The notes below the pieces were generated by a model. The model was not told the DNA's origin. It did not search any database and saw nothing but the letters and a program-made list of their open reading frames with translations. Below, in pieces: positions 53 to 9,935 of a DNA stretch of 12,063 nt (positions are counted from its first letter, which is position 1; every line of letters begins with the position of its first letter). Origin of the DNA: Gemmatimonadota bacterium (GTDB lineage: Bacteria > Gemmatimonadota > Gemmatimonadetes > Gemmatimonadales > GWC2-71-9); assembly GCA_039590195.1 (NCBI GenBank), contig JBDHFY010000209.1, positions 1-12,063 on the forward strand, in the 5' to 3' direction. The position numbers and the translations under genes were made by a program.

Positions 53-88
53 GTAGGGTGTAGGGTATAGGGTGTGGGGTGTTGGGGT
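53..88 (+). repeat. Five tandem G-rich heptads, GTAGGGT GTAGGGT ATAGGGT GTGGGGT GTTGGGGT, containing four or more GGG runs (a canonical G4 motif on the + strand)
   Basis: Read directly in the sequence at 53-88. A second run, GGGTGGGGTGGGG, lies at 153-165. No ORF covers the region. Confidence 0.6.
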
Positions 89-311: not shown

Positions 312-1763
312 CTATGCCAGCTTTGCAGCTGTGGCAGTGGAAGAGTCGTGTACCCCGTCGCCAACGTCCGCCACCGGAAGCCATAGTGTAAAAGTGCTGC
401 CGGACCCCGGGTGTGATTCGACAGTAATCCGTCCAGATTGAAGCTCGGCCAGGAGGCGCGCGATGGTGAGGCCGAGCCCAGCACCACCATGCGCCCGGCT
501 CCGCGAGGCCTCCAGTCGACAGAAGCGATCGAAGATCCTCTCGGTGTGTTCCGGCCCGATACCGGGGCCGGTGTCCCTCACTTCGACGCCGCCGAGATCG
601 TTCGTCCGTCTGACGGCGATGCTCACCGCACCCTCCGCCGTATACCGCACGGCGTTTGAGATGAGATTGAACAGCACGTGCCTCGTGCGGTCCGGATCGC
701 CGACCACCTGAAGCGGGCCGTTCATATCTCCTTTGATCTCGAGTTCCCGGCTCTCCGACATGGCCACCGCGATCTCGTACACTTCTGCCGCCACTTCCGT
801 CAGATCGAACGGCCGGCGGTCAACCGACAGCTGACCGTTCTCGCCTCTTGCGATGAGCAGCAGGTCCTCCACCATCTTATTGGTCCGCTCGATTTCCTTC
901 TCGATGGCACCGAGGGCCTCGCGCATCTCAACACCGCTGCGTCCTTCTGCCTGCGCCCACTGCGCCTGGGCGCGAATGTGGGTGAGCGGTGTGCGCAGCT
1001 CGTGACTCGCGTCGCCCGTGAACGCATCCAGGGCCTGGTGCGCCCGCTCCACCCGCTCGAGCATCCGGTTGACGCTGTCCGCAAGCTCGGTCACCTCGGC
1101 CTGGCCGGTAGGCGTGTCCACTCGGAGATCCAATTCCTCGGGCCCGATGGCCCGCATAGTGGCGCCTACCTGTCGAAGCGGGGAAAGCGCAGCCTGCACC
1201 GAGCGGCGAGCCCTTCGCCGGGCAAGAAGCGCTGTCACCGGGACCAGGATCGCCGCGGCGGTCAGCAGCAACAGCAGACCGGCGGCGAGCGTTGCCCGGC
1301 TAGCCACCACGTAGATATCAAAGCTATCGGACTTGCGATGGAGCATAACGTACCGCCACCTGGCGCGGTCGCTGATCTCTGCGAGCAGCAGGTCGCGCAT
1401 GGCGTCGGGCGAGGCGGGTCCAATGCCCTCGATGCGCCTGGCCGGCATGTCAGGAGAAAGGAAATACAACTCGCGCATGTCGTCGGCACCGGCTTCTCTG
1501 GTGATGGCAAAGGCGTGCGTCATCCCGACGAGCTGATCGGCGAGCATGGCCGGTGCCACAGTAGTCGGTTCCCCTGCGGGATCCGCGTAGAGGCCGAGCA
1601 ACGATTCGATGACGTCTGCCGTGTGTTCCAGCGACCGCCGCAGCCCGAATTCCGAGACGGCGCCGAAGACGACGATCACCAACAGGGCGTAGCCTGCCAC
1701 TGCTCCCCACACTGTCCGGTTGAACCCGGCCACGAGCTGCGCCTCCAGACGTCGCTCAGTCAT
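312..1763 (-). CDS. Sensor histidine kinase: two TM segments flank a periplasmic sensor domain of about 130 aa, followed by HAMP, HisKA and HATPase_c domains
   Basis: The ORF 312..1943 is trimmed to the ATG at 1763 (MTERRLEAQ...), which overlaps the RR stop as ATGACTGA. The H-box reads ASHELRTPLT and the G-boxes read GPGIGPE and GGAGLGLTIA. Two hydrophobic segments flank the periplasmic region. Confidence 0.85.
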   Translation of the reverse strand: MTERRLEAQLVAGFNRTVWGAVAGYALLVIVVFGAVSEFGLRRSLEHTADVIESLLGLYADPAGEPTTVAPAMLADQLVGMTHAFAITREAGADDMRELYFLSPDMPARRIEGIGPASPDAMRDLLLAEISDRARWRYVMLHRKSDSFDIYVVASRATLAAGLLLLLTAAAILVPVTALLARRRARRSVQAALSPLRQVGATMRAIGPEELDLRVDTPTGQAEVTELADSVNRMLERVERAHQALDAFTGDASHELRTPLTHIRAQAQWAQAEGRSGVEMREALGAIEKEIERTNKMVEDLLLIARGENGQLSVDRRPFDLTEVAAEVYEIAVAMSESRELEIKGDMNGPLQVVGDPDRTRHVLFNLISNAVRYTAEGAVSIAVRRTNDLGGVEVRDTGPGIGPEHTERIFDRFCRLEASRSRAHGGAGLGLTIARLLAELQSGRITVESHPGSGSTFTLWLPVADVGDGVHDSSTATAAKLA

Positions 1764-2439
1764 CCTCGCGCTCCAAGCGATATCCGACACCGCGGACGGT
1801 GGTGATGGGCGCGCGGCGTCCGCCGAAGGAGAGCTTCTTCCGCAGATAGTTGATGTACACGTCCACCACGTTGGTCTCCGTGTCGAACTGGTAGTGCCAC
1901 ACTGCCTCGGCGATGCGGGAACGGGAAACTGTCCGTCCGGCATGCCGCATGAGAAACTCCAGGAGCGCCAGCTCTCGCTCGCTCAAATCCACGATCCGAC
2001 CGCTGTGAGTCACCTGCCGGTGATGGGGGTCGAGCGTGAGATCGCCCACCACCATGAGCGCCTCCTGATGCCGGAGCGCCGCTCGGCGGATCAAGGCATG
2101 AACCCGAGCTAGGAGCTCCGAGAGGTCGAACGGCTTCGTTAAGTAGTCGTCGGCGCCCGTCTCGAGGCCCTCCACTCGCGATTGCAACTCCTCACGGGCA
2201 GTAAGCATCAAGACTGGCGTGTGCACCGACCGCTCGCGAAGCTCTGCCACGACACTGAACCCGTCCCGCACAGGCAACATGAGATCCAACACGATGCATG
2301 CGTAGTCGCGGCTCAGCGCGCGCTCGAGTGCCCTTTCGCCGTCCTCGGCTTCATCGACGGCGTATCCCTCTTCACAAAACGCTTTCTTGAGAAACCGCCT
2401 GAGGGGCCGGTCATCCTCGACCAAGAGAAGTTCCATCAC
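1756..2439 (-). CDS. OmpR/PhoB-family response regulator (REC domain plus winged-helix DNA-binding domain). The C-terminal motif VDVYINYLRKKL resembles the heavy-metal CusR/CzcR/CopR subgroup.
   Basis: The protein is 227 aa, with the acidic pocket LLVEDD, D at LDLMLP, a conserved T in LMLTAR and K in YLTKPF. The C-terminal winged helix has RELALLEFLMRHAGRTVSR ... VDVYINYLRKKL. It lies upstream of, and overlaps, the HK gene. Confidence 0.9.
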   Translation of the reverse strand: MMELLLVEDDRPLRRFLKKAFCEEGYAVDEAEDGERALERALSRDYACIVLDLMLPVRDGFSVVAELRERSVHTPVLMLTAREELQSRVEGLETGADDYLTKPFDLSELLARVHALIRRAALRHQEALMVVGDLTLDPHHRQVTHSGRIVDLSERELALLEFLMRHAGRTVSRSRIAEAVWHYQFDTETNVVDVYINYLRKKLSFGGRRAPITTVRGVGYRLEREDD

Positions 2440-2496
2440 AACAACCTAAGGCCGAGTGGGGGAAAACGGCAGGGTTGGGTCGAAGAGACCGACACT

Positions 2497-2512
2497 ATTA
2501 GAGCGTTCTAAT
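2497..2512. promoter_or_regulatory. Perfect 6-4-6 palindrome ATTAGAgcgtTCTAAT, a candidate response-regulator box in the RR/lipoprotein divergent intergenic region
   Basis: Read in the sequence. It sits in a locally AT-rich intergenic stretch 58-73 nt upstream of the RR ATG (2439), on the other strand. Heavy-metal RR boxes (CusR/CopR type) are similar 6-4-6 palindromes. Confidence 0.3.
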
Positions 2513-2523
2513 GTTCGCTGGGG

Positions 2524-2550
2524 ATTAGAGGAGAATGAGAAACTTCTAAT
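2524..2550. promoter_or_regulatory. Second pair of ATTAGA / TCTAAT hexamers, inverted with a 15-nt spacer
   Basis: ATTAGA is at 2524-2529 and TCTAAT at 2545-2550. This gives four copies of the same hexamer within 55 bp. Confidence 0.22.
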
Positions 2551-2684
2551 AACACACTCAAGGCCCTCCTCCCTCCGGGGCCGTCCCTCTATACTGCGTC
2601 GCGCTTTCATGAGTCAATCGCCATGCCCGATGGGGCTATGATGCCCCGCGCTTCGTACGACGGCCAACCCAAGGAGGAGATTCC

Positions 2685-3437
2685 ATGCGCAACAACGTCT
2701 TTGCCGTGCTCACGATCTCGGCAGTCCTTGTAGGATGCAACGAGAGCATGTCGAGCCTCACCGACCCCGACATGCAGGCCGCCGCTTCGAGCGGCGTCGA
2801 GAACGCCGCGGATGCAGCGGCGCGAACGTATGAGGTCACGATCGAGAACCTCACCGGCAGCCAGCCGTTTTCCCCCGGCATCGTGGCCACGCACACACGG
2901 CAGGAACATGCGTTCCAAGTCGGTGAGTTTGCCAGCGAAGGCATCCGCTTGATCGCCAAGACCGGCTCGCCCGGCACTGCTTTGGCCGAGCTTGGCGGAG
3001 TTCCAGGTGTCGACCAGGTCGTGTCGACAGGGTCCCCGGTGGGTTGCGTCGGATGCTCTGGTCCCCCCAGCACGCTGACGATCCCGATCGAAGCCCGGGC
3101 CAACGCAAACCGCCTGTCGGTGGCGGTCATGCTCATCTGCACGAATGACGGCTTCGTAGGACTCGACGGCGTGCGGTTGCCGGGTGGCTTCAAGCCGGTG
3201 ACATACATGGCCTCCGCGTACGACGCCGGCACCGAGTTGAACGACGAGCTATCGACCAGCATCGTCGACGCCTGCGGCGCCATCGGTCCGGTGGATTTCC
3301 CGGGCGACGGAGACAGCCGGACCGCGACCTCAGAGCCCATCTCACACCACGCGGGAATCCAAGGCGTCGGAGATCTCTCCGCTGCTCATGGCTGGACGGA
3401 TCCGGTGGCCAGGATCACGGTGAGGCGAGTGAAGTAG
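2685..3437 (+). CDS. Secreted lipoprotein with a spondin_N-like (reeler/spondin) domain
   Basis: There is a strong SD (AAGGAGGAG) 7 nt before the ATG. The signal peptide carries a lipobox (LVGC-N). The motifs YEVTIENLTGSQPFSPGIVATH ... FASEGIRLIA ... LSVAVMLICTNDGFVGLDGVRL match the Spondin_N pattern as I remember it. Confidence 0.7.
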   Translation: MRNNVFAVLTISAVLVGCNESMSSLTDPDMQAAASSGVENAADAAARTYEVTIENLTGSQPFSPGIVATHTRQEHAFQVGEFASEGIRLIAKTGSPGTALAELGGVPGVDQVVSTGSPVGCVGCSGPPSTLTIPIEARANANRLSVAVMLICTNDGFVGLDGVRLPGGFKPVTYMASAYDAGTELNDELSTSIVDACGAIGPVDFPGDGDSRTATSEPISHHAGIQGVGDLSAAHGWTDPVARITVRRVK

Positions 3438-3452
3438 GGAGAAGGGAGAGGG

Positions 3453-3664
3453 GAGAAGGGAGAAGGCCCCACCCAACTCCCCGGCCCCTGCTGCCAGCTG
3501 CCTGCGACCAGACGTGAGAGGCCAGCCCGGGGCGCAAGCCCGGGGTTTTCATGTGAGCCACAGATGAACGCGGGTTCGCGCGGATGCGGTTTGAGTTATC
3601 AGAGCTGGCAGCCGGCCGCTGGCAGCTGAGGCGGTGGTTGCGGTGCGGGGCCTTCTCCCTTCTC
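3453..3664. repeat. An 18-bp perfect inverted repeat (GAGAAGGGAGAAGGCCCC at 3453-3470 and its reverse complement at 3647-3664) flanking 176 bp between convergent genes. The right arm overlaps the permease stop codon.
   Basis: Read in the sequence. The left flank also carries a 14-nt direct repeat, GGGAGAAGGGAGAG/GGGAGAAGGGAGAA, at 3437-3464. Inside are CTGCCAGCTGCC / GCTGGCAGCTG sub-palindromes. Confidence 0.55.
3525..3549 (+). terminator. Candidate intrinsic terminator: a 6-bp all-GC stem CCCGGG / CCCGGG with a 7-nt loop (gcgcaag), followed by GTTTT
   Basis: Positions 3526-3531 pair with 3539-3544 and the T-run is at 3546-3549. It lies 88 nt downstream of the lipoprotein stop. Confidence 0.4.
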
Positions 3665-4844
3665 ACTCTTCTCGTAGCGTCGCAGCCGGATCGACTCCCG
3701 CGGCCCGTCGCGCCGGAATGACACAGGCAAGGAGCGCCGTCGCCACAAGACCGACCGTGACGCCTGCAAACGTCACCCCGTCCGTAGGGGAAACCTCGAA
3801 CAGCATGCTCGCCATGAACCGCGTGAGGGCAAGCGCCCCTCCAACACCGATGGCGATACCCAGAACCACGAGCCGCATTCCCCGTCCGACGATGAGGCGC
3901 AGGACGGACTCCGGACCCCCTCCCAGGGCCATGCGGATACCGATGTCCCGGGTGTGCTGCTGCACGAAATACGACATGACACCGTAGATGCCGATGGCGG
4001 CGAGCAAAAGCGCCACGGTGGCGAAACCGGCGATCATCGCCAGGAAGTTCCGCGGCGAATCCAATGCGCTCTCCATCAGTTCTTCCATCGTAGCAACTTC
4101 AGAGAGCGGCAACGTAAGATCCAACTCACGCACGATTGCGCGGACGGCAGGCACAACGGAGAGCGGATCGGTGGCGGTGCGCACAAACAGGATCCTGCTC
4201 CACCAGGTGTTTTGCAGTACCGGCTGGTAGATAGTCCCCCAGCCGGGATCGTCGAGTCCCATGTACTTCACGTCGCCCACCACCCCAATCACGGTCAACC
4301 AGGGACAGTCCGGACGGTTGCAGCCTCCAGAGTGAAGGCGCCTACCGATGGGATCCTCGCCGGGGAAAAAACGCCGCACCCATGCCTGATCCACAAGGGC
4401 CACCCGTGGCGCGCCGGGGCGGTCGCTCTCGTCGAACATGCGTCCTCGGATGAGCGGGATGCCAAGGGCGTGGAAGAACTCCGGCGACACGACAGGCCAC
4501 GGGGCTACCGGCTCGGCTTGCTCAGGCGGCGTCGGTTTATCCTCGAGGTTGAAATTGTTGATCATGCCGATGTAGTCCGGCGGTCTCGAGGAGCCCGAGC
4601 CCACGGCCACGACTCCAGGCAGCGCGCCGACGCGGTCCATGAGCTGTTCCCAGAAGGCGGCTTCCATCGCGGGCGCATCACTGTACGTTGCGCGGGGAAG
4701 AGAGATGCGCGCCGTGAGAAGATTGTCCCGATCGATCCCCGGATCGACGCGCTGCAATCTTGCAAAGCTCGTCAACAACAATCCCGCGCCGATCAAGAGC
4801 GGCACCGCCACCGCGAACTGGGACGCCACGAGCATGCGACGCAC
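3663..4844 (-). CDS. ADOP/MacB-like permease, C-terminal fragment: second MacB_PCD and second FtsX module. It is not an independent gene; the apparent MRRML start is a by-product of the duplication.
   Basis: ORF track 3663..4844. The sequence continues the upstream fragment once 14 bp are removed. Confidence 0.6.
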   Translation of the reverse strand: MRRMLVASQFAVAVPLLIGAGLLLTSFARLQRVDPGIDRDNLLTARISLPRATYSDAPAMEAAFWEQLMDRVGALPGVVAVGSGSSRPPDYIGMINNFNLEDKPTPPEQAEPVAPWPVVSPEFFHALGIPLIRGRMFDESDRPGAPRVALVDQAWVRRFFPGEDPIGRRLHSGGCNRPDCPWLTVIGVVGDVKYMGLDDPGWGTIYQPVLQNTWWSRILFVRTATDPLSVVPAVRAIVRELDLTLPLSEVATMEELMESALDSPRNFLAMIAGFATVALLLAAIGIYGVMSYFVQQHTRDIGIRMALGGGPESVLRLIVGRGMRLVVLGIAIGVGGALALTRFMASMLFEVSPTDGVTFAGVTVGLVATALLACVIPARRAAGVDPAATLREE

Positions 4845-6391
4845 AGCATGCGACGCACACGCTGCGCGCGCAGGCTCCCCGTGGCCGTGCGGCCGCTCGA
4901 GCCTAGAGTTCGCTCGAAATCAGAACGCGTCGCCTGCAGCGACGGAATCAAGCCAAACAACAAGCCGCTCGCCAGGGTAACGGCGATCGTGAACCACAGC
5001 ACCGGTCCGCTGAAGCCGATCTCGGCCGCGCGCGGTACGAAGGTGGATCCGCTGGCAGCCATAACGTCCACCGCAGCGAACGTCAGGACGAGGCCGAGAG
5101 CTGCGCCGCCCGCCGCAAGCAGTGCGCTCTCGGTCAACAGGTGCTGCAGAAGTCTACCGCGCGATGCCCCGAGCGCTGCCCGCACCGCCAACTCTCGGCC
5201 TCGTTGGGTGCCACGGGCCACCAACAGGTTCGCAGCATTCGTCGATGCGATGAGCAGCACGAATCCAACAGCGCCAAGGAGAACAAGCAAGCGCGCACCA
5301 ACGTCTCCAATCACGAACGCGTGAAGGCTCTCGACTCCGTACGTGACGGTGGAGTCAGGGTAGGACGATTTCCAAATGGGGAAGATGCGCTCGTTGATTG
5401 CTCTCAGTTCCTCTTCAGCGACACCAACCTCGGCATCGGGTCGCAAACGACCGAGCACTCGCAGAGAAAACGGCCCCTTCCGCGGTGGCGGCTGCATCTG
5501 CAGGATCGGGAACACCTCGCGCCGCGCCTCGAGGGGGCCAGCGTTCGGCGGAAGCACCCCAACCACGGTGTAGTCGTTGCCGTCGAGCCTTATGAGGCGA
5601 CCGATGGCTTCCGGGTCGCCACCGAGTCGTTCACGCCAAAAGCGGTGCGCGAGAACCGCCGTGCTCTCTGCGCCGAGTACGGCGTCGGCTGGGACGAACG
5701 TACGACCATGGAGCGGCATGATGCCCAACAGGGGGAAGTAAGCGGGTGTCACGAACATGACGAAGATCCGTTCAGCTACCTCGTCTTGGTTGAACGTCGC
5801 CGCGGAGTTGCGGTACGCGGCCACACTCTCGAACGTGGTCTGCTGCTCGTCGATGGCTTGATAATCCACCACCGAGAGCGGCCAGCGGTTGGGCGGGGAG
5901 TCCGTATAGATGCGCACGACTCGCCCGGGTTCAGAATAGGGAAGTGGCTTCAACAACACCGCGTGCACCACACTGAAGACCGCTGCGGTGCCGCCGATTC
6001 CAAGACCCACAGTCAATAGGATCGTGAGGCTCAAGCCGGGAGTCTTGATCAGACTTCTCGCACTGTGGCGAACGTCCCGCAACACATGGCGGATCGTTTC
6101 TCCGAAGCCCCCCGATCGGAGGACGCCCGATGTGGCGCTTGGTCGTGTGAGCTTGCCTGCGCCGAGCCGGTCGGCCAGCAGTCGAATCGGATACTGCATC
6201 GCTTGACGACGATACCAGGCGGCGGCAGCCTCATCACCGTCGCGGACGCGGCGGCGGTCAAAGAGCTCATCGAGGTCGTTCAACACCGCGAAACGATCCT
6301 CCCGGCTCAACAACAGTCTGAGAACCCACCGCACCAGCAGAGGAAGACGGGGGTTCTTCTCTCCGGACGAAGACCGAGGGGTCATGGGCAT
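4793..6391 (-). CDS. ADOP/MacB-like permease, N-terminal fragment: prefix domain, first MacB_PCD and first FtsX module, up to the frameshift
   Basis: ORF track 4793..6427. The start is trimmed to the ATG at 6391, which is coupled to the padR stop. Its last 18 codons, after the duplication, are out-of-frame read-through. Confidence 0.6.
   Translation of the reverse strand: MPMTPRSSSGEKNPRLPLLVRWVLRLLLSREDRFAVLNDLDELFDRRRVRDGDEAAAAWYRRQAMQYPIRLLADRLGAGKLTRPSATSGVLRSGGFGETIRHVLRDVRHSARSLIKTPGLSLTILLTVGLGIGGTAAVFSVVHAVLLKPLPYSEPGRVVRIYTDSPPNRWPLSVVDYQAIDEQQTTFESVAAYRNSAATFNQDEVAERIFVMFVTPAYFPLLGIMPLHGRTFVPADAVLGAESTAVLAHRFWRERLGGDPEAIGRLIRLDGNDYTVVGVLPPNAGPLEARREVFPILQMQPPPRKGPFSLRVLGRLRPDAEVGVAEEELRAINERIFPIWKSSYPDSTVTYGVESLHAFVIGDVGARLLVLLGAVGFVLLIASTNAANLLVARGTQRGRELAVRAALGASRGRLLQHLLTESALLAAGGAALGLVLTFAAVDVMAASGSTFVPRAAEIGFSGPVLWFTIAVTLASGLLFGLIPSLQATRSDFERTLGSSGRTATGSLRAQRVRRMLCVACSWRPSSRWRCRS
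4831..4858. repeat. Perfect 14-bp tandem duplication (AGCATGCGACGCAC twice) inside the permease gene, causing a +14 frameshift
   Basis: Read in the sequence: 4831-4844 is identical to 4845-4858. Confidence 0.9.
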
Positions 6392-6720
6392 CACACCTCG
6401 TCCAACACCGTTTCCACGCCTTCCCACAGGCGAGCCAGTTGGCGGCGAGATTCCTTGAGCCGCCGTATCGCATCCGGGGTCAGCTTGAAGTAGCGCCGGA
6501 CGCGACCGGTCTCTTCACCGGCCTGACCGTCGAACCGCGACGTCAACAGGCCCTTCTTTTCCAGACGTCGCAGCACGATAAACACGGCGGCCTGGGCCAC
6601 CTCCCGGCCGGTGCGTTCCTCCAGCTCTTCCACGACGGGGACGCTGTAGGCTTCGCCACCGAGGCGAAGAACGGTGAGGAGGACCTGGTGCTCGAAATCG
6701 CCGAGGTTTTCTCGTGCCAT
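6391..6720 (-). CDS. PadR-family transcriptional regulator
   Basis: The ORF 6391..6759 is trimmed to the ATG at 6720 (MARENLGDFEHQVLLTVL...), which has a GGAG SD 4 nt upstream. The winged HTH reads ...AAVFIVLRRLEKKGLL...RRYFKLT. Its stop TGA overlaps the ATG of the downstream permease. Confidence 0.85.
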   Translation of the reverse strand: MARENLGDFEHQVLLTVLRLGGEAYSVPVVEELEERTGREVAQAAVFIVLRRLEKKGLLTSRFDGQAGEETGRVRRYFKLTPDAIRRLKESRRQLARLWEGVETVLDEV

Positions 6721-6728
6721 GGGAACTC

Positions 6729-6743
6729 CACTAACATTGTTAG
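6729..6743. promoter_or_regulatory. Perfect palindrome ACTAACA-t-TGTTAGT (7-bp arms) abutting the padR SD, around the predicted transcription start: a candidate PadR autoregulatory operator
   Basis: Read in the sequence. Related copies are at 6776-6788 (TAACAaTGTTA), 6824-6831 (AACATTGT) and 6846-6853 (ATAACAAT). Confidence 0.4.
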
Positions 6744-6745
6744 TA

Positions 6746-6774
6746 CTATGATACGCCACCTAAGGGTGGATGTC
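6746..6774 (-). promoter_or_regulatory. Sigma70-type promoter for padR and the permease: -35 TTGACA (6774-6769), a 17-nt spacer, and -10 TATCAT (6751-6746). The spacer itself contains the palindrome CCACC-taag-GGTGG.
   Basis: The minus strand reads TTGACAtccacccttaggtggcgTATCAT. This places the transcription start just before operator A. Confidence 0.5.
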
Positions 6775-6775
6775 A

Positions 6776-6788
6776 ATAACAATGTTAG
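6776..6788. promoter_or_regulatory. Second operator-like palindrome, TAACA-a-TGTTA, immediately upstream of the padR -35
   Basis: Read in the sequence. It shares its half-site with 6729-6743. Confidence 0.35.
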
Positions 6789-8694: not shown

Positions 8695-8919
8695 ATGTCA
8701 TCCATTATCGCGTCCTGCACCCGTCCGGTCATCGCTCGCGTCCTAGAGCGACGCGACGGCCGGCGCACAGATCGGCCGGCATCCGTTTCCGTTTTGCTCG
8801 GCGGCCTGTTGCTCCTCCTCTGGGGCTACTTCACGTACGTCGACTGGCCCGTCGCATGGCCGGCGCCAATCCGTCCGATCGTCAAGGCCATCGGGTGGAT
8901 CTGGATGGCCATGGACTAG
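8695..8919 (+). CDS. Small membrane protein of 74 aa, with a basic N-terminus and one or two TM helices
   Basis: Third-position GC is very high, consistent with coding. The TM helix is VSVLLGGLLLLLWGYFTYV. Its stop lies 5 nt before the ATPase ATG at 8925. No clear SD is present. Confidence 0.35.
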   Translation: MSSIIASCTRPVIARVLERRDGRRTDRPASVSVLLGGLLLLLWGYFTYVDWPVAWPAPIRPIVKAIGWIWMAMD

Positions 8920-8924
8920 CGATC

Positions 8925-9935
8925 ATGTTCCTGACGCTTGGGGTCCCGCCACATGCTCAACCGGAGCGCACGACGAGACACACGGAGAACTCGAACGTCG
9001 TACTGCGGCTGAGCGGTCTCCGGAAGGCCTATGGAGATCTCGTTGCGGTCGACGACCTGTCGTTGGACGTCCTCCGCGGCGAAGTCTTCGGTTTTCTAGG
9101 GCCCAACGGCGCCGGCAAGACGACCACCATCAGCATGATCTGCGGCCTGCTGAAGGCCGATCGCGGCGAGATCGCGATCGGCGGCCGTCCTCTCGAGGAC
9201 CATTACCGGGAATGCAAACGCATGATGGGCCTCTGCCCCCAGCACGTGGTCGTCTGGGAATCCCTGACATGCCTCGAACAACTAGAGTTTGTTGGGCGCC
9301 AGTACGATCTGCGCCGAGGTGCGGCGCGCAAGAAAGCCTTGGAGTTGCTGGACACGCTCGGTCTCAGCGACAGAAAGAACAAGCTCGCCAAGACGCTCTC
9401 CGGCGGCATGAAGCGCCGGTTGAACATTGCCCTGGCACTCGTTCACGATCCGGAGATTCTCATCCTCGACGAGCCGCAGGCCGGCCTCGACCCACAGAGT
9501 CGTATCCTCATCAGAGAATACATCCGGTCGCTGGCCAACCGCATGACGGTGATTCTCACGACCCACGAGATGGATGAGGCGGATCGTCTCGCCGATCGGA
9601 TCGCCATCATCGACCACGGCCGGCTCCTGGTGCTCGATACACCTGATTGCCTCAAGAGTCAGATCGGCAATGGCGATGTGCTGGAGATTCACATCCCCGA
9701 TGCAGGAGCGGACGAGGTAAACCGCCTCCGGCATGCCCTTCCGGAAGAGCTACGTAACCTGTCCATCGAACAGGGGACCTTGCGGCTCGTAGGCGTGGAC
9801 GTTCTCAATGCGGTGCCGACGTTGATCGAAGAATTGCGCAAGGTCAACCTAGAAGTCCACCAGGACATCACGGTTCGCAAAAAGACGTTGGAGGATGTGT
9901 TCATCACGTTGACCGGCAGGAGGTTGCGGGAGTGA
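8925..9935 (+). CDS. ABC transporter ATP-binding protein of the ABC-2/DrrA-NatA type, with a C-terminal accessory domain of about 100 aa
   Basis: Walker A is GPNGAGKTT, the Q-loop is LCPQ, the signature is LSGGMKRRLNIALAL, Walker B is ILILDEP and the H-loop is TTHE. The start at 8925 is chosen because it abuts the upstream small ORF; an alternative ATG at 8856 is in frame. Confidence 0.85.
   Translation: MFLTLGVPPHAQPERTTRHTENSNVVLRLSGLRKAYGDLVAVDDLSLDVLRGEVFGFLGPNGAGKTTTISMICGLLKADRGEIAIGGRPLEDHYRECKRMMGLCPQHVVVWESLTCLEQLEFVGRQYDLRRGAARKKALELLDTLGLSDRKNKLAKTLSGGMKRRLNIALALVHDPEILILDEPQAGLDPQSRILIREYIRSLANRMTVILTTHEMDEADRLADRIAIIDHGRLLVLDTPDCLKSQIGNGDVLEIHIPDAGADEVNRLRHALPEELRNLSIEQGTLRLVGVDVLNAVPTLIEELRKVNLEVHQDITVRKKTLEDVFITLTGRRLRE

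What the first reader, a model, noticed from the sequence alone, without database searches (positions are those of the whole stretch)
3663..6391. ADOP-type permease inactivated by a perfect 14-bp tandem duplication
The two large minus-strand ORFs 4793..6427 and 3663..4844 are halves of one ADOP-family permease. ADOP stands for acidobacterial duplicated orphan permease, a tandem MacB_PCD plus FtsX architecture of about 900 aa. They are separated only by a frame change. At exactly the junction, AGCATGCGACGCAC occurs twice in tandem (4831-4858). Deleting one copy gives the in-frame sequence QRVRRMLVASQFAVAVPLL, the conserved segment expected at this position. Three explanations are possible: (a) a genuine recent pseudogenisation, (b) a slipped-strand on/off switch, or (c) an assembly or sequencing artefact. 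The gene heads an operon with its own PadR regulator, so inactivation would leave an orphan regulator.
Basis: seen in the sequence. Interest (0 to 1): 0.7.

Follow-up and report, generated by a model that had tools for sequence, protein, structure and literature searches.

The report
Split ADOP permease: probable assembly artefact
A perfect 14-base tandem duplication does split an otherwise ordinary, well-conserved membrane permease gene in this metagenome scaffold, but it is more likely a local assembly error than a biological inactivation or switch.

Summary
AGCATGCGACGCAC occurs twice in tandem at 4831-4858. It is the only perfect tandem duplication in the window, and about 4.5e-5 would be expected by chance. 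Removing one copy fuses ORFs 4793..6427 and 3663..4844 into a 904-aa protein. That protein matches the ADOP model TIGR03434 end to end (866 bits, cutoff 622). Three syntenic relatives (84-87% nt identity) carry one copy, so the duplication is private to this scaffold.

"Inactivation" is doubtful. dN/dS against relatives is about 0.14 in both halves, and there is no second lesion. The relatives come from Bohai Sea sediment metagenomes assembled with IDBA-UD without curation, and the window probably does too. IDBA-UD is reported to make local errors that no read supports. Each sister scaffold has its own private lesion in otherwise conserved genes:
- a 92-nt deletion and a perfect 20-bp duplication;
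- a 74-nt and a 19-nt deletion;
- a 35-nt deletion in PadR.

Microhomology at these lesions is 0-3 nt. Between two near-identical scaffolds, mismatch density changes at two of the lesions.

Best reading: a scaffold-join artefact (about 0.65). A real, very recent frameshift is second (about 0.25). A slipped-strand switch or a functional split is unlikely. Only read mapping can decide. Interest is low.

The parts
4831..4844 (-). Copy 1 (on the + strand) of the perfect 14-bp unit AGCATGCGACGCAC. In gene sense it reads GTGCGTCGCATGCT and encodes (V)RRML.
4845..4858 (-). Copy 2 of the 14-bp unit, identical to copy 1. Base 4859 continues the period by one base. Relatives L001, L002 and L007 have only one copy here, in diverged form.
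4793..6391 (-). ADOP permease, 5' part: about 100-aa N-terminal prefix, TM1, MacB_PCD, then FtsX TM2-4. After ...QRVRRML it runs out of frame through a 16-aa tail (CVACSWRPSSRWRCRS) to a stop at 4795-4793. The ATG at 6391 overlaps the PadR stop.
   Evidence: TIGR03434 positions 2-422, 403.5 bits; JGI gene call P0016
3663..4844 (-). ADOP permease, 3' part: TM5, second MacB_PCD, then FtsX TM6-8. The ORF opens at a GTG inside the second copy of the repeat. JGI and NCBI called it from the ATG at 4835 (P0122, 390 aa).
   Evidence: TIGR03434 positions 418-803, 452.1 bits
6391..6720 (-). PadR-family regulator, 109 aa. It is the first gene of the PadR-ADOP operon.
   Evidence: PF03551, 35.2 bits against a cutoff of 27; start fixed by alignment with L001, L002 and L007
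6731..6788 (-). Promoter-like TTGACA-17-TATCAT (6776..6748) bracketed by two CTAAC-N3-GTTA(G/T) palindromes (6776-6788 and 6731-6743). It is the likely autoregulated PadR operator/promoter.
   Evidence: operator function is inferred

Best explanation
The gene is an ordinary, intact PadR-coupled ADOP-family duplicated permease of a marine-sediment Gemmatimonadota population. The 14-bp tandem duplication that splits it is most likely a local assembly error made when two contig pieces were joined in an uncurated short-read (IDBA-UD) metagenome scaffold. If two pieces truly overlap by 14-15 bases and are abutted without the overlap being merged, the result is exactly a perfect tandem copy. The same imprecise joining gives small deletions where a short real gap is closed.

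Shown here: the duplication, the single gene, its conservation, and its absence from relatives. Inferred: that the window comes from the IDBA-UD data set, and that the duplication arose at a join.
For: 1. The two copies are identical and there is no other lesion. Both halves keep full-length, collinear matches to TIGR03434.
2. dN/dS is 0.144 against L001 and 0.137 against L002, low in both halves (0.10-0.17), at dS about 0.56-0.59. The gene has therefore been under purifying selection for essentially all of its history.
3. L001, L002 and L007 have one copy.
4. Provenance. L002 is scaffold M8-44_Bin_129 of a Bohai Sea Gemmatimonadota MAG. Those metagenomes were assembled with IDBA-UD v1.0.9, scaffolds of at least 2 kb were sent to IMG and MAGs to NCBI (PMC12345210; PMC11316326). 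The window contig and the L001 and L002 contigs are each recorded in both JGI/IMG and NCBI.
5. Chen et al. [quoted passage not shown]
6. Every sister scaffold carries its own private lesion of under 100 nt in otherwise conserved genes:
   - L002: -92 nt and a perfect 20-bp tandem duplication in the ADOP gene;
   - L001: -74 nt in the ADOP gene and -19 nt in the neighbouring Spond_N gene;
   - L007: -35 nt in PadR.
   That is 6 lesions in about 25 kb of comparable sequence. Taken as real, this rate would imply that about a quarter of genes are broken, which does not fit dN/dS of about 0.1.
7. Microhomology at the six lesions is 0-3 nt, so replication slippage is not indicated.
8. L001 and L002 differ by only about 1% in the gene core, yet each has different lesions. 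Their mismatch density changes at the -92 and -74 lesions: 7 mismatches in the 36 nt to the left of -92, then 1 in 1,500 nt; 22 in 590 nt up to -74, then 0 in the 114 nt beyond it, a stretch that includes the +20 duplication. This is what joins between separately assembled blocks would produce.
9. Both perfect duplications are 14 and 20 bp. From memory, unverified, IDBA-UD's default minimum k is 20, so overlaps of this size would go undetected.
Against: - No reads are available, so the defining test (no read supports the junction) was not run.
- That the window itself comes from the IDBA-UD Bohai data set is inferred from its dual JGI and NCBI provenance and from its nearest relatives. It was not shown.
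- There is no identity step at the window's own junction against L007, although L007 is too distant for this test to be sensitive.
- No Ns flank the duplication, whereas one published type of IDBA-UD join error has Ns between the duplicated sequence.
- De Bruijn assemblers do not normally invent repeats shorter than k inside contigs, so the explanation needs a scaffolding or local-assembly step.
- The error rate implied here (about 1 per 4 kb) is far above the 13 per 1.13 Mb quoted for a well-covered genome.
Confidence: 0.65

Rival explanations
1. A genuine, very recent 14-bp tandem duplication in this population, fixed or at high frequency. It frameshifts the ADOP gene in the cytoplasmic loop before TM5. 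The result is a null or crippled permease, or a young pseudogene, with PadR left intact.
For: The duplication is in the deposited sequence and is far beyond chance. It is derived, since relatives have one copy. Identical copies and the lack of any second lesion fit a very young event. Repeats shorter than k normally have to be present in reads to appear in a de Bruijn contig (general knowledge).
Against: dN/dS of about 0.14 in both halves shows no relaxation of selection. Only 1 nt of microhomology flanks the unit. The same class of private lesion appears in each sister scaffold from the related assemblies, at an implausible density for real biology. The likely assembler is reported to make such errors.
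Confidence: 0.25
2. A reversible slipped-strand on/off switch: gain or loss of one 14-bp unit toggles expression of the permease, as in phase variation by tandem duplication.
For: A perfect tandem duplication can in principle revert precisely by slippage or recombination. The frame is restored exactly by losing one unit. Known precedent, from memory: spontaneous tandem duplications in pneumococcal cap3A cause reversible capsule phase variation.
Against: There are only two copies. Relatives have no repeat tract and their single copies have diverged in sequence (GTGCGCCGAGTACT in L001 and L002, GTGCGCCGCATGCT in L007), so nothing is conserved as a switch. The other lesions in relatives include irreversible deletions. 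No second assembly of this population exists in the collections searched that could show copy-number variation.
Confidence: 0.04
3. Gene fission tolerated by function. The duplication falls at the boundary between the two MacB-like modules and repeats the VRRML codons. Module 1 (TM1-PCD-TM2-4) and module 2 (TM5-PCD-TM6-8, starting from an internal GTG or ATG) are therefore both complete and could assemble as a heterodimer.
For: The junction is at residues 512-516, between TM4 (464-482) and TM5 (521-539). The halves cover TIGR03434 positions 2-422 and 418-803, each with a MacB_PCD and an FtsX domain. MacB-type permeases work as dimers of such 4-TM modules (established knowledge). JGI and NCBI gene callers predicted both halves as genes.
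Against: No Shine-Dalgarno or promoter-like site lies ahead of the internal GTG or ATG. There is a 52-nt out-of-frame overlap with the upstream ORF. The C-half would keep only about 5-9 residues ahead of TM5. Among the best 120 hits, every protein apart from the window's own half (P0016) and one truncated 702-aa protein (P0089, not examined) is a fused protein of 765-913 aa.
Confidence: 0.03
4. Programmed ribosomal frameshifting (-1 or +2) across the overlap restores a full-length protein.
For: A 52-nt overlap between the two frames exists.
Against: The overlap contains no slippery heptamer or homopolymer (sequence read directly). The arrangement is absent from all relatives, which are simply in frame.
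Confidence: 0.01

Closest known systems
ADOP family duplicated permease (NCBIfam TIGR03434), usually paired with a PadR-type regulator
   Same: The repaired protein matches the whole model (positions 2-803 of 803, 866 bits against a cutoff of 622). It has two MacB_PCD and two FtsX domains and about 8 TM segments. No ABC ATPase lies in the operon, and a PadR gene is translationally coupled upstream.
   Different: As deposited, the gene is in two frames and each half alone scores below the family cutoff. The host is Gemmatimonadota rather than Acidobacteria. The PadR does not reach the cutoff of the acidobacterial PadR paralog model TIGR03433 (30 bits against 102).
MacB / FtsX-type (type VII) ABC transporter permeases, e.g. 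E. coli MacB (NF007826), LolCE, YbbP
   Same: Each half has the 4-TM plus periplasmic core domain module. There are weak but significant matches to the MacB, YbbP and LolCE models.
   Different: The two modules are fused in one polypeptide and there is no fused or adjacent nucleotide-binding domain. The scores are far below those families' cutoffs.
Local assembly or scaffolding errors in IDBA-UD metagenome scaffolds (Chen et al. 2020, PMC7111523; corrected with ra2.py, e.g. PMC5220378)
   Same: A short lesion that breaks a gene at one point of an uncurated scaffold, with duplicated sequence at a join. There are many such private lesions in sister scaffolds, and the likely assembler is the same.
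   Different: The published description of duplicate-at-join errors has Ns between the copies, and here there are none. Lack of read support, which is the defining criterion, could not be tested.
Phase variation by reversible tandem duplication within an ORF (pneumococcal cap3A; recalled from memory, not checked here)
   Same: A perfect short tandem duplication inside a coding region causes a frameshift that precise loss of one copy would reverse.
   Different: There is no evidence of alternating alleles, no conservation of the site in relatives, and no phenotype.

Membership tests
ADOP family duplicated permease (TIGR03434) | Full-length match to the family model above its curated cutoff | tested here: met
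   The repaired 904-aa protein scores 866.4 bits (cutoff 622.3) in one stretch over profile positions 2-803 of 803. As deposited, the halves score 403.5 and 452.1 bits, both below the cutoff.
ADOP family duplicated permease (TIGR03434) | Tandem duplicated architecture: (TM, MacB_PCD, FtsX) twice, about 800-900 aa | tested here: met
   Pfam finds two stretches each of PF12704 and PF02687, one of each per half. Hydropathy shows 4 + 4 TM-like segments.
ADOP family duplicated permease (TIGR03434) | 'Orphan': no cognate ABC ATPase gene in the same operon | tested here: met
   The neighbours are PadR upstream and a convergent Spond_N gene downstream. The only ABC_tran gene (8856-9935, + strand) sits with its own ABC-2 permease in a separate, oppositely oriented unit.
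PadR-family regulator (PF03551) / acidobacterial PadR paralogs (TIGR03433) | Score above the curated cutoff | tested here: met
   PF03551 scores 35.2 bits against a cutoff of 27, so this is met. The narrower TIGR03433 scores 30.2 bits against 101.8 and is NOT met. It is a PadR-family protein but not a member of that paralog set.
Decaying pseudogene | Relaxed selection (dN/dS approaching 1) and/or several independent disabling lesions | tested here: not met
   There is a single lesion. dN/dS is 0.14 overall, 0.16-0.17 in the N-half and 0.10-0.12 in the C-half, against L001 and L002. A lesion too young to leave a trace is not excluded.
Slipped-strand contingency (phase-variable) locus | A repeat tract kept at the site in relatives, with copy number varying between close relatives or reads | tested here: not met
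   L001, L002 and L007 each have one copy with diverged sequence and no tract. Read-level heterogeneity cannot be tested with these tools.
Naturally split MacB-like half-permease pair | Close homologues encoded as two genes that end and start at this point | tested here: not met
   Among the best 120 hits, all are single proteins of 765-913 aa except the window's own half (P0016, 506 aa) and one truncated 702-aa protein (P0089, not examined). L001, L002 and L007 read through the junction in frame.
Programmed ribosomal frameshift | Slippery site in the overlap and conservation of the two-frame arrangement | tested here: not met
   No slippery heptamer is present in 4793-4858. Relatives are in one frame.
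Local assembly error (IDBA-UD type) | The consensus at the site is not supported perfectly by even one read | not testable with these tools
No independent assembly of the same population was found.
Local assembly error (IDBA-UD type) | The same class of private, short, gene-breaking lesion recurs in other scaffolds of the same assemblies, at block boundaries | tested here: met
   The lesions are -92 and +20 (perfect duplication) in L002, -74 and -19 in L001, and -35 in L007. L001/L002 mismatch density changes at the -92 and -74 lesions. The assembler is documented for the L002 data set.

The most novel reading that the evidence does not exclude
The lesions are real. In that case the PadR-ADOP operon of these Bohai Sea Gemmatimonadota is a hotspot of recurrent, independent frame-breaking indels. 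There are four in the permease, one in PadR and one in the neighbouring Spond_N gene, across four closely related populations. They would be young enough to leave dN/dS untouched. This pattern would point to repeated selection for loss of a surface-exposed permease (for example as a phage or toxin target), or to end-joining-type repair scars. The 14-bp duplication would be the one reversible member of the set.
Probability: 0.06. Interest if true: 0.45.

Novelty: not a real feature. Interest (0 to 1): 0.1.

Why it matters
It matters mainly as a caution. The gene is a routine member of a large, functionally uncharacterised permease family, and the "inactivation" is probably not biological. Uncurated IDBA-UD scaffolds in IMG and NCBI can carry short duplications and deletions that split genes into false "halves" and inflate pseudogene or phase-variation calls. 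Here the JGI and NCBI annotations did call two genes. If reads were to confirm the duplication, it would still be only a young loss-of-function allele of one ADOP paralog. It would become moderately interesting only if the parallel lesions in related populations were also real.

Tried and rejected
- Two scans of metagenome contigs both returned nothing, not even the window or L001. One used flanks with a variable gap to capture 1-3 copies. The other used a 32-mer that is invariant among the window, L001 and L002. That collection therefore does not hold these scaffolds.
- Exact look-ups of the window's own gene calls P0016 and P0122 found no contig on record.
- A look-up of the window's PadR protein found only a 787-bp ENA contig (L008). 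It is 88% identical at the DNA level and stops short of the junction.
- A 220-aa query centred on the junction returned no fragment above 73% identity. The returned list appeared limited to proteins of at most about 385 aa.
- Cluster look-ups showed that this population's gene was assembled only once.
- I looked for IMG sample identifiers in the supplements of the two Bohai Sea papers and found none.
- A sliding-identity test for a strain switch at the window's junction was uninformative, because the nearest relative is 13% diverged.
- Antisense ORFs across the region have no Pfam hits and were dismissed as high-GC shadow ORFs.
- No inverted repeat or internal promoter of note lies at the junction.
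- Programmed frameshifting and a natural two-gene arrangement were considered and rejected (see membership tests).
Full report
**1. Observation.** The + strand reads ...GCCACG AGCATGCGACGCAC AGCATGCGACGCAC ACGCTG... The two identical 14-mers are at 4831-4844 and 4845-4858, and the period continues one base to 4859. A scan for perfect tandem duplications with units of 8-30 bp found no other in the window. The chance expectation for a 14-bp one in 12,063 bp is 4.5e-5. Removing one copy joins them into an open frame of 904 aa from the ATG at 6391. The junction then reads ...GSLRAQRVRRMLVASQFAVAVPLLIGAG....

**2. What the gene is.** The repaired protein matches NCBIfam TIGR03434 (ADOP family duplicated permease) in one stretch over profile positions 2-803 of 803. 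It scores 866.4 bits against a cutoff of 622.3. It has two MacB_PCD and two FtsX Pfam domains.
- As deposited, the N-half covers profile positions 2-422 (403.5 bits) and the C-half positions 418-803 (452.1 bits). The five shared positions are the duplicated VRRML. Neither half reaches the cutoff alone.
- Hydropathy puts the junction (residues 512-516) in the cytoplasmic loop between TM4 (464-482) and TM5 (521-539). That is the boundary between the two MacB-like modules.
- About 100 N-terminal residues precede the ADOP core and give only a weak match to "permease prefix domain 2".
- Antisense ORFs over the region have no family hits.

**3. Context.**
- Upstream lies a 109-aa PadR-family gene at 6720..6391 on the minus strand (PF03551, 35.2 bits against 27). 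Its start was fixed by alignment with relatives.
- The PadR stop overlaps the permease ATG (TGATG). PadR therefore heads the operon, not the permease.
- Ahead of PadR is a near-consensus TTGACA-17-TATCAT (6776..6748). Two CTAAC-N3-GTTA(G/T) palindromes bracket it. This is probably the autoregulated operator/promoter.
- No promoter-like or Shine-Dalgarno-like site precedes the internal GTG (4844) or ATG (4835).
- Downstream are a convergent Spond_N gene (2685-3437, + strand) and a response-regulator/histidine-kinase pair. Upstream on the other strand are GntR, Band_7, and an ABC ATPase with an ABC-2 permease. The permease has no ATPase of its own, as the ADOP name implies.

**4. Provenance and relatives.**
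- The window is a whole 12,063-bp scaffold held by both JGI/IMG and NCBI. Both sources called the halves as separate genes: P0016 and P0121 for the N-half, P0122 for the C-half.
- The closest relatives are syntenic scaffolds. L001 (IMG 3300041077, 6,719 bp) is 84-85% identical at the DNA level. L007 (same IMG sample, 12,395 bp) is 86.6% identical over window 334-6577. L002 (5,949 bp) is 89% identical to the repaired protein over its best segment. It is scaffold M8-44_Bin_129_scaffold_276931 of a Gemmatimonadota MAG.
- The M8-44 MAGs come from Bohai Sea coastal sediment (PMC11316326). Those metagenomes were assembled with IDBA-UD v1.0.9. Scaffolds of at least 2 kb were submitted to IMG and MAGs were deposited at NCBI (PMC12345210).
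- The L001 and L002 contigs are also present in both JGI/IMG and NCBI. That the window belongs to the same data set is an inference from this shared pattern and from its nearest neighbours.

**5. The duplication is derived and private.** L001 and L002 have one copy, reading GTGCGCCGAGTACT in gene sense. L007 has one copy, reading GTGCGCCGCATGCT. Alignments show exactly a 14-nt gap opposite the window. L007's permease is intact in one frame and 90.7% identical in protein sequence. More distant orthologues at 53-75% identity are single proteins of about 800-910 aa. The locus is therefore not a natural two-gene arrangement, and nothing like a repeat tract is conserved at the site.

**6. Selection.** Nei-Gojobori estimates on the repaired alignment give:
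- window vs L001: dN/dS 0.144 (N-half 0.164, C-half 0.115) at dS about 0.56;
- window vs L002: dN/dS 0.137 (N-half 0.173, C-half 0.098) at dS about 0.59;
- L001 vs L002: dN/dS 0.086.

The gene has been under purifying selection in both halves. If the lesion is real, it is extremely young.

**7. The unexpected result.** The sister scaffolds are also "broken", each in a different way.
- L002 lacks 92 nt in the TM1 region (window coordinates about 6083-5992). It also carries a perfect 20-bp tandem duplication, GCGTAATTCCGGCGCGGCGC twice, near the 3' end of the same gene.
- L001 lacks 74 nt (window coordinates about 3847-3774), which scrambles the last TM segments. It also lacks 19 nt in the neighbouring Spond_N gene. 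That gene is intact in L002.
- L007 lacks 35 nt inside PadR (window 6578-6612), which splits PadR into two small ORFs.

All six lesions are private to one scaffold, shorter than 100 nt, and flanked by only 0-3 nt of microhomology. They sit in genes that are otherwise conserved.

L001 and L002 are about 99% identical across the gene core, yet they carry different lesions. Their mismatch density changes at two of the lesions:
- 7 mismatches in the 36 nt to the left of the 92-nt deletion, then 1 in the next 1,500 nt;
- 22 mismatches in 590 nt up to the 74-nt deletion, then none in the 114 nt beyond it, a stretch that includes the 20-bp duplication.

Six gene-breaking lesions in roughly 25 kb of comparable sequence would, if real, mean about a quarter of genes are broken. 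That cannot be reconciled with dN/dS near 0.1.

**8. Interpretation.** The pattern fits imprecise joining of separately assembled pieces. Abutting two pieces that truly overlap by 14 or 20 bases gives a perfect tandem duplication. Closing a short real gap gives a deletion without microhomology. Chen et al. 2020 (PMC7111523) describe local assembly errors that lack support from even one read. [quoted passage not shown] Such errors are routinely repaired with ra2.py in curated work (PMC5220378). My recollection that IDBA-UD's scaffold step appends contigs using an estimated distance without verifying the overlap, and that its default minimum k is 20, is unverified. I put the artefact reading at about 0.65.

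**9. Rivals.**
- *A real, very recent duplication (about 0.25).* This remains possible because repeats shorter than k normally have to be present in reads. No Ns mark a join, and the window's membership of the IDBA-UD set is inferred.
- *A reversible switch (about 0.04).* This has no support beyond reversibility in principle.
- *A tolerated fission into two complete half-permeases (about 0.03).* The lesion sits exactly at the module boundary and repeats VRRML, which makes this geometrically attractive. However, the C-half has no translation signals and there is no fissioned relative.
- *Programmed frameshifting.* This is excluded by the lack of a slippery site and by the in-frame relatives.

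**10. What could not be done.** No reads were available, and no second assembly of the same population was found. Two metagenome scans found nothing. Exact look-ups of the window's own gene calls found no contig. The only contig with the identical PadR protein is 88% identical in DNA and too short to reach the junction. A junction-centred protein search found nothing above 73% identity. Cluster listings show a single assembly of this allele.

**11. Verdict.** The sequence observation is right, and so is the single-gene reading. The gene is an ordinary ADOP permease with its PadR partner. The "inactivation" is most likely a local assembly error and at best a very young frameshift allele. Interest is low. 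The useful outcome is the warning about short duplications and deletions in uncurated IDBA-UD scaffolds, together with a simple read-mapping test that would settle the question.

Noticed in passing
L002:3203-3242 (equivalent to window ~3725): A second perfect short tandem duplication (GCGTAATTCCGGCGCGGCGC twice, 20 bp) sits in the orthologous ADOP gene of the Bohai Sea MAG scaffold. It is frame-breaking, private to L002, and absent from L001, L007 and the window.
   Followed up: yes
L002:949/950; L001:3651 and 4534; L007:4427/4428: There are private deletions with no or minimal microhomology: 92 nt (ADOP, L002), 74 nt (ADOP, L001), 19 nt (Spond_N gene, L001) and 35 nt (PadR, L007). Each breaks an otherwise conserved gene.
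   Followed up: yes
L001 vs L002, window-equivalent 6136-3660: The identity between these two scaffolds is a mosaic. It is about 95% to the left of the 92-nt deletion, 100% for about 1.5 kb, falls to about 93% up to the 74-nt deletion, then returns to 100%. Synonymous divergence differs tenfold between gene halves (dS 0.007 against 0.073). This suggests chimeric strain blocks or recombination.
   Followed up: partly
window 6731-6788 (- strand): A near-consensus promoter, TTGACA-17-TATCAT, is bracketed by two CTAAC-N3-GTTA(G/T) palindromes upstream of PadR. The palindromes are conserved in L007, and the proximal one also in L001 and L002. It is a likely PadR operator.
   Followed up: partly
window 4862-4873: A perfect 12-nt GC-rich palindrome, CTGCGCGCGCAG, lies 3 bases from the duplication. 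It is a conceivable site for a coverage drop or contig break.
   Followed up: no
L006:6827-6933 and ~8101: The 67%-identical orthologue is in a MAG labelled Acidobacteriota (MFD03804) and changes frame twice next to A4 runs. From memory, this resembles a long-read homopolymer indel error. It is a different error type from the window's lesion.
   Followed up: partly
L008 (ENA ERZ26800495 NODE_240120, 787 bp): This contig encodes a PadR protein identical to the window's over 109 aa, although its DNA is only 88% identical. That indicates strong purifying selection on the regulator.
   Followed up: partly
window 6083-6391 (residues 1-103 of the permease): An N-terminal extension of about 100 aa precedes the ADOP core. 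It gives only a weak match to NCBIfam 'permease prefix domain 2' (19 bits against a cutoff of 35). It is conserved in many of the 890-910-aa homologues and absent from the roughly 800-aa ones.
   Followed up: partly
window 1756-1943: The longest ORFs for the histidine kinase (312..1943) and the response regulator (1756..2439) overlap by 188 nt. In L007 the kinase is 481 aa and overlaps the regulator by only 8 nt, so the real kinase start is probably near 1760.
   Followed up: no
window 53-86, 3436-3466, 3007-3034: There are small imperfect tandem repeats: GTAGGGT x4.9 near the contig end, AGGGAGA x4.4 just after the Spond_N stop, and an 85%-matching 14-bp repeat x2 inside the Spond_N gene.
   Followed up: no
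one search hit list (e.g. P0126 and P0162 on one 185,851-bp contig): Many ADOP-like fragments of 200-385 aa lie on long contigs. Split or truncated ADOP gene calls therefore appear to be common in public MAGs generally.
   Followed up: no
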